Source: the human T2T-CHM13v2.0 reference genome, Homo sapiens. From it: 64,000 nt of DNA. The notes under the pieces were generated by a model. The model saw nothing but the letters and a program-made list of their open reading frames with translations. It had not been told where the DNA came from and made no database searches. Numbering within the stretch: the stretch's first letter is position 1; each line of letters starts with the position of its first letter. The stretch lies in assembly GCF_009914755.1 (NCBI RefSeq), contig NC_060934.1, one strand, 5' to 3'. Position numbers and translations under genes: made by a program. Positions 42,451-47,744 of this stretch are shown piece by piece.

Positions 42451-43606
42451 AGGAATTTAAGAAATTATACTTTAAACAGAATAAAATAGTGCTAAATATT
42501 TTTAAAGTACAAACAATAGGAATATAATGTGTTAAAGAGTACAATGACTTATAATGAAGCATATATAAATGGTAACACATTATATTAAGTCTCTGATACA
42601 GACTCATAAGAATATACTAAAATACCTATATTTCTGCAGGCTTAGAACATGAAATTATGTACTTGTCAGTCAAATACTACAAGTCTTACATATTTTCTTC
42701 AATGTTACCTACATGTAATTGCTCACAGAACTTAAAAACTTGTTTACACTGGATTTTCTGGCTTAGTGCACCCTCATTCTTCCCTTTGGTCTATGTACAA
42801 CGTCTGCATTCCATGAACCCTGGGGCAGCAGGATCACCCACTGATAAGACAGATACATTTGAGACAGGATATAAATCAGCCTGATCTTTGCCTAGGATAA
42901 GCTCTAACAGAGAATCAACCTTTAGCCTTGTGGACAGTGACTAGATCCAGTTCACTCCATTTCCCTATAAATTAGTCTAAACTAATCTGAATACATTCAT
43001 TTCAGAGACTTTATACTGAGGCCATTTCTCAGTTGCTTGTGCTGGAATTAAACCAAACCCCTTTGCTTTGGGGAATGCTCAACTGGTAAGGTTCAGAGAA
43101 GGCAGTTTCAGATCACAGACCTCACACCAAGTGATTACACAAGTAAGACACGTGCATCAATCCTTCTAACCACAGTCATCCAAGTGGGCTGTTGGGTTTT
43201 GTCACTTTGCTAAGTGCTGACTTCGGATCCCATTTGTAATCTGAAATGTACCAAGTGTACTCTTGTTGATACATTTGGAGTTGCTTCCACGGTTCAAACA
43301 TTTAGGGTTACGTGTATTTTTTCAAGTATGACCTATATTATTAGTATCGTTTTGTTTAGTTTCATTAACAGTGGCAGTGCAAGCACAGTGGTGGTGACGG
43401 AGGAAACACAGTCCTTTTATTTCAGCACCTGCCAAGGCAGGGCATTATGTGAGGAGCTTCAGATAAATTGCTAATAAGGTCATGAAAGTTTGGCAAGATT
43501 TATTTTATCATCCTTATTTTACTGATGAGAAAGCTGTCAGCTGACTTGAGCCTCCATTACAAGTGACTGCAAACCCTACTCTTTCTGACTCTTAAAACTG
43601 GCTACA

Positions 43607-43896
43607 GGCCAGGCGCAGTGGCTCATTCCTGTAATCCCAGGACTTTGGGAGGCCGAGGAGGGCGGATCTCGAGGTCAGGAGATCAAGACCATCCTGGCTA
43701 ACAGAGTGAAACCCCGTCTCTACTAAAAATACAAAAAATTAGCTGGGCGTGGTGGTGGGCACCTGTAGTTCCAGCTATTCGGGAGGCTGAGGCAGGAGAA
43801 TAGCGTGAACCCGGGAGGCAGAGCTTTTGCAGTGAGCTGAGATCACGCCACTGCCCTCCGTCTCAAAACAAAAAAACAAAAAAAAAAAAACCCACA
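43607..43896 (+). mobile_element. AluY with 25-nt internal deletion in the right arm
   Basis: AluY diagnostics (gagatcaagaccatcctggctaac, gcgtgaacccgggagg); exact TSD aaaactggctaca at 43594-43606 and 43897-43909. Confidence 0.95.
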
Positions 43897-44695
43897 AAAA
43901 CTGGCTACAAAACTAGTGGCAACTTCAGGAATACAGAATAATCATAGAAAATATACTTGACTTGCATGAATATATTAGATCATTCTAGAAGTTTCCAGAG
44001 ACCACAAAGGACCCTGCCCTCCCAGGGCTCTGCAACATTCCTTGCCCTCTGGCATGATCAGAGGCCCCTGTGGCTCATGTTTCTGCCTTGGTGTTGGATA
44101 ATAAATTATTCCAGTGGCTGGTGATTTGGTTGAATCTAAATCTCAGCCAGTAAATGATAAAATGTGGCAAGCAAAGTTTTGCATAGGCCTCTTCTCTGGG
44201 TTGTGTGTATGGGGCTCAATTCCTCTCCACAACAGCAGGGATCTCAGTGCTCCAGAAATGCTCCCATGATGGGAAGCCCCACAAACTGATGGTGTTGGAA
44301 TTGAAAGATAGGAAGGACAACATGTGAGGGAAGAAAGCTCTGTCTCTAACATTTGGAGCTTTACTGCCAACCCAATTCCCATTTGCCTAACTGAAGACAC
44401 ACAGCTGTAATAGGAAAAAGTGGTGCATTGGTATCTGCTTTAAGATGCTCCAAGTTTCTCAGAGTGGGCAGCTCTATGGTAGTTGGGGGACAGTGGTCAT
44501 TTAGTCACTGTCCTCTTTAGACAATGGTGGAATGTATGCAGGATACAATGGCATGGCCAAAGTCAAGCATGACAATTTCATATTTGGGACAGAAATCCAG
44601 GTAAAGAAAACTGAAGCTTTCTTGATGAGAAAATTCAAATTATCCAAAGACAAAAGATGTTCTAGCCCTGCTTCCTGCATTATGAAGACATTATG

Positions 44696-45384
44696 AGCCT
44701 CGCCGTGGGTGCTGATGGCGGGGAGGGGCGTGTGGGAGGCCTGGGTTGCGAACCTGAGTCAACTGCCCACTCCTCACAGTCCCAGACCCAGGAGATACGG
44801 GAAGGCACGCACAGAGGAGTCACCAAGGAGCTTTTCGCGGAGGGTGGTGATGTGTGGGGGCATCCTTCCTCCCACATGGGTCCAGGGAGATTCACCTCTC
44901 AGGGGCTCCTGAGCATGTGGGCCTGGACCCCACAGGGCATGCAGGGGCGGGCGGGCTTCCATGCAGGATGAGTGAGTGGAGAGAAACGCTCTGGTTAGAG
45001 AATTCCCGGCCTACACGTCGCCCCCTCACCAAGATAGAGAGCTCCTGATTTCCCCGGGTGGACAGGTGTCAGTGTGTGCCTTTCAGTGTCAACCCGTGTG
45101 GCAGATGGGTGAAATACAAGTCTTGTGAAATTCGAATGCGAAACTTGTGAAATCAAAAGGGTTTTATTAATGACCATCAGGGAGTCATGATCAAGGTGAA
45201 GCCTTCCAGCAAAACCAGCGATTGGCTTGTTGGCAGATACACCCAAGGGAGGCTTCATACCTTAAGGTGACCTGGATGGTGTTTTGGAGATAATGCAGGC
45301 CCACTTGTGACCCTGGTCCCTTCTACTGGGACTGTAAATAAAAATAAACGGTGGGCCAGAGGTCTCCTGGAAAAAAAAAAAAAA
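44696..45384 (+). pseudogene. L1-mediated retroposed unique sequence (5'-truncated retrocopy or orphan 3' transduction), source unidentified
   Basis: Exact TSD aagacattatg at 44685-44695 and 45385-45395. Tandem AATAAA at 45337-45342 and 45343-45348; pure A run at 45371-45386. GC- and CpG-rich, unlike the flanks, and not recognisable as Alu, L1 or LTR. Confidence 0.88.
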
Positions 45385-47744
45385 AAGACATTATGTTTGA
45401 TTCACACCATTTTATCTTCCATTCCACTCTTCATGAAATAACTTCGACAGTGGAAAATGAGGAAAAACCTGAATTGGTCTAGAAGCTGGAGAAGAAAATT
45501 ATTGAAATATCAGCATTTTGGGGGACTTTCTCCTACTTATAACACTAATGGGACATTAAAGACTGGAGGGCCAATTTGAAAGTTTCCTGTTGGAGGGAGT
45601 GGTATAGTTTTTCACTGAGATATTAGAAAGATCCTGGAACTCACAATCATCCTCCCTGTAGGAGTAAAGGCTGAATGCTGATGGGGATTATTACCCTCAC
45701 TGGGACAATATTATTTTAATCCCGTAGTCATTGACGGTTGTGGTGACTGCCCAGCTCATGGTCAAAGATTGTTGAAATTATAAAAAATAAAATTTTCTGA
45801 TTCAAAAGCAGAAGCAAAGTAATTAAATTCTTATTTAAATTTAAGAAAACATGATTTTTATTAGGAAATATATAAATGACGAGATGGTAACAATACAGAT
45901 GGTGATAACATTAGCTGGGTTAGAAACAAGTCAAAAATAATTTTTAAAAGAGTTCATAGTTATAAAGAAAGAATAGTTTGAAATAAAATAGGAGTAAATG
46001 TAAATTTAAAATGCATTAGAAGGAGCCAATTTACAAAGCCAATTGACTTTGCGGAAAATAAAGTCAGCAATTCAGAAACTAACCTATAGAGAATCTTCCA
46101 TTATGGAGAAAAGACTAAGAAATGGGGAAAAAATAACAGACTTGGGGAGATGTAGAGGCAAATTGTGCAATTAAAATTTATGGGTAATACTCCTTCAAAA
46201 GAAATTAAAATAAATAGGATGGAAAAATATTTAAAGGTTAAAACAAAAATAGTATATTAATAGTAATAAGAAGCTATGTTTAGTAAGATTGTATTTTTGA
46301 AATGGAAGACTGTTTCAATATTAGCAAAATGAATTACATACCCACAGAAAATATTTCAAAATTTATAAAAATTTATATCTACTTCTACTTTAAAAATTGC
46401 TAATAAACTAAAAATAGAAAGATGCTTTTTTTACATGAATAAAACTCTTGAGTCATTATTTTTTATGTTATTAAAATTTTGAAATTGATGTTTAAAATTA
46501 TATGTATCTGCTATGTACAACATGGTTCAAAATATATATGCATTGTGGAATGATAAAATCTATCTAATTAATTTATGCATTACCTCACATAGTTATCATT
46601 TTTGCAATGAAAACACTTTGCATCCATTCTCAGCATTTTTTAAGAAAGCAGTATATTATTAACTTTAGTCACCATGTTATACAATAGATCTCTTGAACTT
46701 ATCCCTCCTCTCTAACTAAAATTTTGTATTCTTTCATCTTCTCCTTCTCCATCGCCTCCTCCAACCTCCCCCCAGTCTCTGGTGACCACCATTATAATCT
46801 TTACTTCTGTGAGATCAGCTTTTCCGTATTTCACATATGAATGAGACGACTCACTGTTTGTCTTTCTGTTTCTGGCTTATTTTACTTAAAAAAATGTCCT
46901 CCAGGTTCATCCATGTTGTCACAAATGATAGAATTAATTTCTTTCTTTATTGCTCATGGCTGAACATATTCTGTTGTATGTATATACAACTGTGTAGGTT
47001 GTCTCTTCACTCTGTTGATTGATAACGTTACTGTGCAAAAGTTTTTTAGTTTGATGTAATCCTATTTGTCTGTTTTTTCTTCTATTGCCTGTGCTTTTGG
47101 AGTCAAATTCAAAAGATCATTTACCACACCAATGTCATGGAGCTTTCCCCTTATGTTTTCTTCTAGTAGTTTCATAGTTTCAGTTTTTAAGTTTTGAATG
47201 TATTCTGAGTTGATTTTTATATATGGTGTAAGATATTGCATATGATAGGGTCTAATTTCATTCTGCATGTGGATATCCTGTTTTCCCAGTGTCATTTATT
47301 GAAGGGATTTGACTTTCTTCATTGGTGACTGTTGAAAATCAGTCTGCTTTAAATGTGAAGATTTATTTCTGAGCTCTCAAGTTTGTTCCGTGGGTCAATA
47401 TGTCTGTTTTTATGACAGTACCATGCTGTTTTGATTACTATAGCTCTGTCATATATATTATCTAGTTAGATTGACCATTTTATTATTATATAATGATCTT
47501 CTTTGTCTCTTTTTAAAGTTTTGACTTAAAGTCTGTCTAATGTGATATAAATGCTACTTTTCCTCCTCTCTTTTGGTTTCCATTTTTATGGAATGTATTT
47601 TTCTATCTATTCATTCAGTCTGTGTAAGTCCTTACAAGTGAAGTGAGTCTCTTATAGGCAGCATACAGTTGAATCTTTTTTTAAAAAAATCCATTAAGCC
47701 TCTGGGTGTATTGTAAATGGATAATTTGATCTGTTTACATTTAA

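What the first reader, a model, noticed from the sequence alone, without database searches (positions are those of the whole stretch)
44685..45395. Young retroposed non-repeat cassette: orphan transduction or retrocopy of an unidentified GC-rich transcript
Seen: 675 bp (44696-45370) of GC-rich sequence with about 20 CpGs sits in AT-rich, CpG-poor DNA. It is bounded by a perfect 11-bp TSD (aagacattatg). Tandem AATAAA motifs end 22 nt before an uninterrupted poly(A). The target site tg|aaga resembles the L1 endonuclease TT|AAAA motif. Established: these are hallmarks of target-primed reverse transcription by L1 ORF2p. Inference: I recognise no L1, Alu or SVA body and no convincing ORF. It is therefore either a 5'-truncated copy of an mRNA/lncRNA 3' end or an orphan 3' transduction from a source L1/SVA. 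The perfect TSD, pure tail and retained CpGs suggest a recent, possibly lineage-specific or polymorphic insertion. It imports a poly(A) site and CpG-rich DNA that could truncate a + strand host transcript.
Basis: partly seen in the sequence, partly recalled or inferred. Interest (0 to 1): 0.8.

Follow-up and report, generated by a model that had tools for sequence, protein, structure and literature searches.

The report
Old retrocopy of HMGA1-upstream antisense RNA
This is an old, inert copy, pasted into chromosome 10 by the L1 machinery, of a short non-coding RNA that is transcribed away from the HMGA1 gene promoter on chromosome 6; it is an ordinary kind of genomic fossil, not a young insertion.

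Summary
Window 44696-45370 is a GC-rich insert with 21 CpGs. It is flanked by a perfect 11-bp target-site duplication, has two AATAAA signals, and its A-run starts 22 nt after the second signal.

A search of the whole assembly found one other copy, at chr6:34059774-34060451 on the minus strand. That locus has no A-tail and no duplication. Homology stops exactly at the chr10 A-tail. It starts 22-31 nt downstream of a TTTAAAA box that abuts the published Oct-1/Oct-2 octamer of the HMGA1 promoter. HMGA1 coding exons lie about 4 kb away on the opposite strand.

So the insert is an L1-mediated, probably full-length retrocopy of an unspliced, polyadenylated RNA of about 690 nt with no long ORF. That RNA is transcribed divergently from the HMGA1 upstream promoter.

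It is not young. There are 93 mismatches in 673 aligned sites and 11 indels, non-CpG K2P distance is 0.107, and only 12 of the parent's 42 CpGs are shared. The substitution spectrum is strand-symmetric. It is not an orphan transduction, because no L1 or SVA lies upstream of the donor. It is not a repeat family, because the genome holds only two copies. No gene is annotated nearby, and it is most likely inert.

The parts
44685..44695 (.). Left copy of the 11-bp target-site duplication (AAGACATTATG). The inferred L1 endonuclease nick is on the bottom strand between 44684 and 44685 (bottom strand 5'-TCTT|CA-3').
   Evidence: 11 of 11 identical to 45385-45395; chance control.
44696..45370 (+). Body of the retrocopy. 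It is colinear and unspliced relative to chr6:34059774-34060461 minus strand, the RNA transcribed divergently from the HMGA1 upstream promoter.
   Evidence: it is the only other genomic match, at 84% identity; alignment with 580 matches, 93 mismatches and 11 indel events; no convincing ORF.
45113..45153 (+). Internal imperfect 19-nt direct repeat inherited from the parent RNA, which carries the same repeat.
   Evidence: family D1. The alignment shows it in both copies.
45337..45348 (+). Two abutting AATAAA polyadenylation signals, identical in the chr6 parent.
45371..45384 (+). Remnant poly(A) tail. The pure A-run spans 45371-45386; the first two A may be templated and the last two belong to the TSD.
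   Evidence: At this point the parent continues with G+C-rich sequence and has no A-run.
45385..45395 (.). Right copy of the 11-bp target-site duplication.

Best explanation
Window 44696-45370 is an L1-mediated retrocopy, a processed-pseudogene-type insertion, of a non-coding RNA.

The parent is an unspliced, polyadenylated transcript of about 690 nt on the minus strand of chr6 at T2T 34059774-34060461. By my offset estimate this is roughly hg38 chr6:34.2361-34.2368 Mb. It is transcribed head-to-head with HMGA1. Its start lies 22-31 nt downstream of a TTTAAAA box and 43-50 nt downstream of the octamer that Oct-1/Oct-2 bind in the HMGA1 promoter. It ends about 22-24 nt after a tandem AATAAA.

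Inferred mechanism: in a germline or early-embryo cell, L1 ORF2p nicked the chr10 bottom strand at TCTT|CA. It primed on the RNA's poly(A) tail, copied it to or near its 5' end, and staggered second-strand cleavage produced the 11-bp duplication.

The insertion is old, on the order of tens of millions of years. That is about the divergence I recall between human and New World monkeys. The copy arrived without its promoter, lies in a gene desert, has lost most of its CpGs, and is most likely inert.

Shown: the two-copy relationship, the breakpoints, the TSD, the tail, the divergence and the identity of the neighbouring gene. Inferred: L1 as the agent, full length of the copy, the age in years, and lack of function.
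For: - Copy number: searches of the whole assembly with the insert and with the chr6 locus each return only these two places (2 candidates, 2 scored).
- 3' end: homology ends at ...CCTGGAA. chr10 continues with the A-run and the TSD; chr6 continues with unrelated G+C-rich DNA.
- 5' end: the insert's first base aligns to L002 2188, which is 31 nt after the first T of TTTAAAA (L002 2219-2213). An alternative gapped alignment puts it at 22 nt.
- Promoter identity: the 30-nt HMGA1 promoter octamer segment of Chiefari 2013 Table 1 (human, -3980 from the ATG) matches L002 2221-2250 exactly. My distance from the octamer to the ATG is 3982.
- Neighbouring gene: HMGA1 coding exons lie on the opposite strand in L003. 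One exon matches PDB 2ezd, HMG-I/HMG-Y, at E 7e-10.
- Coding potential: the parent RNA strand has no ATG ORF longer than 34 aa.
- Age: 93 mismatches in 673 sites; non-CpG K2P 0.107 (57 differences in 575 sites); 20 parent-CpG to TpG/CpA changes in the copy against 5 in the reverse direction; 42 versus 21 CpGs with 12 shared.
- Substitution spectrum: strand-symmetric, C>T 19 and G>A 21, with all 12 classes present.
- Independent hint from mouse: transcripts running in the opposite direction from the Hmga1 promoter are reported in HSV-1/ICP27-treated cells (PMC12711578, passages only).
Against: - No expression data were available. That the chr6 locus is transcribed today is inferred from the retrocopy and the promoter-like motifs.
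- The parent is colinear with the copy, so there is no intron-loss proof of an RNA intermediate. The case rests on the tail, the TSD and the ends.
- The first 9 nt of the insert align poorly, in G+C-rich low-complexity sequence, so the exact 5' end is uncertain by about 10 nt. The parent has T where the copy begins with A.
- The target site matches the L1 consensus at only 4 of 6 positions.
- No other primate genome could be searched, so the age rests on divergence and on recalled calibration values.
- I found no paper or annotation that names the parent RNA.
- One of my two hg38 landmarks is off by 2 bp.
Confidence: 0.85

Rival explanations
1. The insert is a 5'-truncated retrocopy of a longer antisense transcript. 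That transcript would start further upstream, for example inside HMGA1 exon 1 or intron 1. The coincidence of the copy's 5' end with the TATA-like box would then be chance.
For: L1-mediated copies are often 5'-truncated (Casola and Betran 2017, passages). The first 9 nt of the insert align weakly. A second A/T-rich run lies about 90 nt further upstream on the same strand (L002 2310-2304).
Against: The copy's end falls 22-31 nt downstream of TTTAAAA. By recall that is the canonical TATA-to-start spacing, and it is one narrow position among about 700 possible truncation points. The octamer and GC box sit just upstream, in a core-promoter arrangement.
Confidence: 0.1
2. The insert is an orphan 3' transduction: read-through RNA from a source L1 or SVA, severely 5'-truncated so that only the flanking sequence was inserted.
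For: The insert contains no repeat body but has the TPRT hallmarks.
Against: The only donor in the assembly is preceded on the transcribed strand by the HMGA1 CpG island (GC 0.69). It has no L1, SVA or Alu-like sequence, and Rfam at E<=1 finds nothing in L002. The donor has its own promoter-like module and its own poly(A) signal.
Confidence: 0.01
3. The insertion is young, lineage-specific or polymorphic. The donor would be either fast-evolving or not the chr6 locus.
For: The TSD is perfect, the A-run is uninterrupted, and CpG o/e (0.41) is still above that of the flanks.
Against: Substitution divergence is 14%, with 11 indels against the only other copy in a telomere-to-telomere assembly. The spectrum is symmetric, so there is no editing artefact. 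Only 12 of 42 parental CpGs are shared. An intact 11-bp TSD is expected with probability about 0.29 at this divergence, and the tail is short at 12-16 nt.
Confidence: 0.02
4. The copy arose by DNA-level segmental duplication of the chr6 segment, with a fortuitous A-run and a fortuitous direct repeat.
For: The copy is colinear with genomic DNA, so no intron has been removed.
Against: The copied segment runs exactly from a promoter-proximal start to 22-24 nt past AATAAA. It is followed by A(n) that is absent from the donor and is bracketed by an 11-bp duplication of the target.
Confidence: 0.01

Closest known systems
L1-mediated processed pseudogenes (retrocopies) of cellular polyadenylated RNAs
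   Same: It has a poly(A) remnant at the parent's cleavage site, an 11-bp TSD, an A/T-rich nick site and no promoter, and it has decayed neutrally. The hallmarks are as summarised in Casola and Betran 2017 (passages).
   Different: The parent is not a spliced protein-coding mRNA. It is a short unspliced RNA with no long ORF, so the usual intron-loss criterion cannot be applied. Retrocopy catalogues seeded with proteins would, I infer, miss it.
Promoter upstream / upstream antisense transcripts (PROMPTs, uaRNAs) of bidirectional CpG-island promoters
   Same: The parent starts inside the HMGA1 upstream promoter and runs away from the gene. It is unspliced, under 1 kb, and ends at a promoter-proximal AATAAA. 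By recall this is the pattern described for such RNAs.
   Different: Exosome sensitivity and instability, which define PROMPTs, could not be tested. An RNA stable and abundant enough to be retrocopied may instead be a conventional divergent lncRNA. It also has its own TATA-like box and octamer.
Orphan 3' transductions of L1 and SVA
   Same: A non-repeat insert with TPRT hallmarks.
   Different: There is no source element upstream of the donor.
HMGA1 processed pseudogenes (the HMGA1P series; name recalled, not checked here)
   Same: They derive from the same locus and arose by the same machinery.
   Different: Those copies come from the sense HMGA1 mRNA. This one copies the opposite strand upstream of the gene and contains no HMGA1 exon sequence.

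Membership tests
L1-mediated retrocopy (TPRT insertion of a cellular RNA) | Poly(A) tract at the 3' end, positioned at the parent RNA's cleavage site and absent from the parent locus | tested here: met
   A 16-A run starts 22 nt after the second AATAAA. The parent continues with G+C-rich DNA.
L1-mediated retrocopy (TPRT insertion of a cellular RNA) | Target-site duplication of about 7-20 bp flanking body plus tail | tested here: met
   The 11-bp repeat is 11 of 11 identical at both breakpoints. Chance control: 14 of 63189 positions.
L1-mediated retrocopy (TPRT insertion of a cellular RNA) | Nick site resembling 5'-TTTT|AA-3' on the primed strand | tested here: inconclusive
   The bottom strand reads TCTT|CA, which is 4 of 6 positions. 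The consensus is recalled.
L1-mediated retrocopy (TPRT insertion of a cellular RNA) | A parent locus elsewhere that lacks the tail and the TSD | tested here: met
   chr6:34059774-34060451 is the only other copy in the assembly.
L1-mediated retrocopy (TPRT insertion of a cellular RNA) | Loss of the parent's introns | not testable with these tools
   The copy is colinear with the parent DNA, with indels of 4 nt or less. The parent RNA is therefore unspliced and the criterion cannot discriminate.
Orphan 3' transduction | Source L1 or SVA immediately upstream of the donor sequence on the same strand | tested here: not met
   Upstream of the donor lies the HMGA1 CpG island, promoter octamer and 5' exons. 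There is no Rfam SRP/Alu-like hit in L002.
Interspersed repeat family (L1, Alu, SVA, LTR) | Many dispersed copies in the genome | tested here: not met
   There are two places in 3.1 Gb. No Dfam or RepeatMasker library was available. The hub table shows 44696-45370 as unmasked apart from the nearby stretch 43601-43903.
Young or polymorphic insertion | Near-identity to the donor | tested here: not met
   86% identity, non-CpG K2P 0.107 and 11 indel events. The spectrum is symmetric.
Divergent promoter transcript (PROMPT / uaRNA) as parent | Start within the promoter of a gene, on the opposite strand and pointing away from it | tested here: met
   The parent start (L002 2188-2197) lies 24-33 nt from the published HMGA1 promoter 30-mer (L002 2221-2250). 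HMGA1 exons are on the other strand. The MANE start is about 1.15 kb away, by my offset from Hawkes 2024. A nearer upstream HMGA1 start, about 115 bp away, is recalled only.
Divergent promoter transcript (PROMPT / uaRNA) as parent | Short, unspliced and terminated at a promoter-proximal poly(A) signal | tested here: met
   It is about 690 nt, colinear with the DNA, and carries a tandem AATAAA.
Divergent promoter transcript (PROMPT / uaRNA) as parent | Rapid degradation by the nuclear exosome | not testable with these tools
   No expression data were available.

The most novel reading that the evidence does not exclude
The chr10 element is a full-length fossil of the upstream antisense RNA of the HMGA1 promoter. 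It would record that, tens of millions of years ago, this RNA already started about 30 nt downstream of the TTTAAAA box and ended at the same tandem AATAAA. It would also record that the RNA was abundant enough in germline or early-embryo cells to be captured by L1. It would further imply that the conserved Oct-1/Oct-2 octamer, studied as an HMGA1 promoter element, sits with the TATA-like box in a canonical core-promoter arrangement (about -50 and -31). That arrangement serves the antisense RNA rather than the TATA-less HMGA1 starts, so octamer effects on HMGA1 may act through a shared bidirectional promoter.
Probability: 0.5. Interest if true: 0.4.

Novelty: new member of a known kind. Interest (0 to 1): 0.25.

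Why it matters
On its own the chr10 element is a dead retrocopy in a gene desert and has no expected consequence.

Its modest value is as a record. It shows that the DNA just upstream of HMGA1 produces, or once produced, a discrete unspliced polyadenylated antisense RNA with defined ends. HMGA1 is a growth and height locus with regulatory variants in this same promoter (Hawkes 2024, passages).

It also places the known octamer in a core-promoter position for that RNA. It illustrates that retrocopies of RNAs with no protein-coding frame exist and are not listed in the RefSeq gene table supplied for this window.

Finally, it is a caution for first-pass reading. A perfect TSD and a pure short A-run do not by themselves indicate youth.

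Tried and rejected
- Rfam at E<=1 on both loci: 0 hits in the insert or in the chr6 locus. The 3 hits listed are all in an Alu upstream of the insert.
- ORFs: nothing convincing in the insert. The longest frame uses an ATG supplied by the TSD. The parent RNA strand has no ATG ORF over 34 aa.
- Paralogous empty site: searches with the left and right flanks each returned only the locus itself. No empty-site stand-in exists, but the flanks are shown to be unique.
- APOBEC-type editing as a cause of false age: rejected, because the spectrum is symmetric.
- Name of the parent RNA: searches for HMGA1-DT, HMGA1-AS1, 'HMGA1 divergent' and 'HMGA1 antisense', for HMGA1 + 'bidirectional promoter' + lncRNA, and for lnc-HMGA1 and 'upstream of HMGA1' found no description of it.
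- RP11-513I15.6, which I recalled as a lncRNA near HMGA1: it is tied to SNPs at 6:34232864-34240886 in a paper that states no genome build in the passages I saw. I could not place it and do not equate it with the parent.
- lnc-HMGA1-2 isoforms are named in one paper without coordinates.
- PDB search with the first HMGA1 coding exon found nothing. The second exon matched.
- Literature phrases for retrocopies of lncRNAs gave no relevant paper. This covers only those phrases in that library.
- No primate genomes, Dfam, expression tracks or pangenome data were on hand.
Full report
**1. The observation**

- The 11-mer AAGACATTATG occurs at 44685-44695 and again at 45385-45395.
- Between them lie 675 bp (44696-45370) of GC 0.56 with 21 CpGs (observed/expected 0.41), followed by 16 uninterrupted A (45371-45386).
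- The 2-kb flanks have GC 0.43 and 0.31 and CpG o/e 0.19 and 0.21.
- Two abutting AATAAA (45337-45348) end 22 nt before the A-run.
- As a control, only 14 of 63189 positions in the window have an identical 11-mer anywhere 600-800 bp downstream. A match located exactly at both breakpoints is therefore not chance.
- The pre-insertion site reads tatg|aaga on the top strand, which is TCTT|CA on the primed strand. This is a loose match to the recalled L1 endonuclease consensus TTTT|AA.

**2. The donor**

A search of the whole 3.1-Gb assembly with the insert returned only itself and chr6:34059774-34060451 on the minus strand, at 84% identity. The reciprocal search with the chr6 segment returned the same two places. 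The sequence is therefore not an interspersed repeat.

The alignments show that homology ends at ...CCTGGAA. chr10 then has the A-run and the TSD, while chr6 continues with unrelated G+C-rich DNA and has neither. The direction of copying is therefore chr6 to chr10 through a polyadenylated RNA cleaved about 22-24 nt after the tandem AATAAA.

The two are colinear throughout, with indels of at most 4 nt, so the RNA was unspliced.

**3. What the donor is**

Read on the transcribed strand, the chr6 homology is preceded by a GC box, the octamer ATGCAAAT (L002 2238-2231) and a TTTAAAA box (L002 2219-2213).

The first base of the insert aligns to L002 2188, which is 31 nt after the first T of that box. 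A gapped alternative alignment places it at 22 nt. Either value fits the TATA-to-start spacing I recall as canonical, so the copy is most likely full length.

Several results tie this region to HMGA1:

- The 30-nt segment that Chiefari et al. 2013 print as the conserved octamer region of the human HMGA1 promoter, at -3980 from the ATG, is identical in mouse and chimpanzee and differs at two positions in cow (PMC3867479, section 12 and passages). It matches L002 2221-2250 exactly.
- On the opposite strand, about 4 kb away, stop-to-stop frames in L003 read as the HMGA1 coding exons. One of them matches PDB 2ezd, 'high mobility group protein HMG-I/HMG-Y', at E 7e-10. The first coding exon found no PDB match.
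- My octamer-to-ATG distance is 3982, in line with the paper.
- Hawkes et al. 2024 (PMC11450065, passages) give the MANE HMGA1 start at hg38 6:34237902 and a common indel, 6:34237688 G>GGAGCCC. A (GAGCCC)3 tract with a preceding G sits at L002 3120-3138. This gives hg38 = T2T + about 176,295 and puts the MANE start about 1.15 kb from the donor's start. A second landmark, the variant at 34236873, is off by 2 bp, so the offset is approximate.
- From memory only, a more upstream HMGA1 start lies about 115 bp from the donor start.

The donor is therefore an RNA transcribed divergently from the HMGA1 upstream promoter. It has no ATG ORF above 34 aa on its own strand and no Rfam match.

I found no paper naming it. 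RP11-513I15.6, a lncRNA name linked to this neighbourhood, could not be placed from the passages I saw.

In mouse cells, transcripts 'in the opposite direction' from the Hmga1 promoter are reported when 3' processing is disturbed by HSV-1/ICP27 (PMC12711578, passages). This is independent, indirect support for divergent transcription at this promoter.

**4. Age**

- Of 673 ungapped columns, 580 match and 93 differ, and there are 11 indel events.
- At non-CpG sites there are 57 differences in 575 (K2P 0.107). Over all sites K2P is 0.154.
- The parent segment has 42 CpGs (o/e 0.69, a CpG island) and the copy has 21, with 12 shared.
- There are 20 parent-CpG to TpG/CpA changes in the copy against 5 in the reverse direction.
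- The spectrum is strand-symmetric (C>T 19, G>A 21, all 12 classes present), so cDNA editing does not explain the divergence.
- At this divergence, two 11-nt TSD copies stay identical with probability about 0.29, and a 14-nt A-run stays pure with probability about 0.46.

Using recalled genome-wide values (human-macaque about 6-7%, human-New World monkey about 11-12%), the pair is about as diverged as human and a New World monkey. That puts the insertion at tens of millions of years ago, if both copies drift neutrally. This date is an inference, and no other primate genome could be searched.

**5. Mechanism and function**

The shown facts fit trans-mobilisation of a cellular poly(A) RNA by L1 ORF2p. 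The steps are a nick at TCTT|CA, priming on the tail, reverse transcription to the 5' end, and an 11-bp staggered second nick. L1 as the agent is inferred from these hallmarks (Casola and Betran 2017, passages).

The copy begins at or just after the RNA start, so it brought no promoter. The flanks are unique sequence, and the hub table lists no gene in the window or within 100 kb. I therefore rate it as inert. The idea that it truncates a host transcript has no transcript to act on.

**6. Rivals**

- 5' truncation of a longer antisense RNA remains possible (about 0.1), because the first 9 nt align weakly.
- Orphan transduction is rejected, because no L1 or SVA lies upstream of the donor.
- Recent insertion is rejected on divergence.
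- DNA-level duplication is rejected because of the tail, the TSD and the transcript-shaped boundaries.

**7. Comparison, novelty and verdict**

This is a processed-pseudogene-type retrocopy whose parent is a short unspliced divergent promoter RNA with no long ORF, rather than a spliced mRNA. It is a new member of a known kind.

The mildly interesting by-products are two. The fossil fixes the ancestral ends of the HMGA1 upstream antisense RNA. The octamer studied as an HMGA1 element sits, together with a TATA-like box, in a core-promoter position for that antisense RNA.

Interest is 0.25.

Noticed in passing
L002 2213-2250 (chr6, T2T 34060486-34060523): The published HMGA1 promoter octamer directly abuts a TTTAAAA box and a GC box. 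Together they form an octamer-TATA module pointing away from HMGA1. By recall this resembles the histone H2B promoter layout. Chiefari 2013 describe the HMGA1 regulatory region as TATA-less.
   Followed up: partly
L002 3120-3138 (chr6): A (GAGCCC)3 hexamer tract preceded by G fits the common height-associated indel 6:34237688 G>GGAGCCC of Hawkes 2024. I used it only to estimate the offset between T2T and hg38.
   Followed up: partly
window 44678-44695: The target site already contained a 7-nt internal repeat, CATTATG, at 44678-44684 and 44689-44695. The second copy lies within the TSD.
   Followed up: no
window 45113-45153 and the matching part of L002: An imperfect 19-nt tandem-like direct repeat ending in CTTGTGAAAT is present in both the retrocopy and the parent RNA. 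Its meaning is unknown.
   Followed up: no
window 43608-43866 (L001 413-671): Rfam hits below gathering score to Metazoa_SRP and mir-1268 mark an Alu. This agrees with the masked stretch 43601-43903 in the hub table.
   Followed up: no
window 45800-46600: A very A+T-rich stretch (GC 0.19-0.33) with strong G-over-C skew, up to 0.57, lies just downstream of the insertion. It was not examined.
   Followed up: no
L002 2420-2478 (chr6): An A/T-only microsatellite-like run lies inside the otherwise 69% GC island. By the splice-site-like junctions and my recollection of the gene structure, it lies in the first HMGA1 intron.
   Followed up: no
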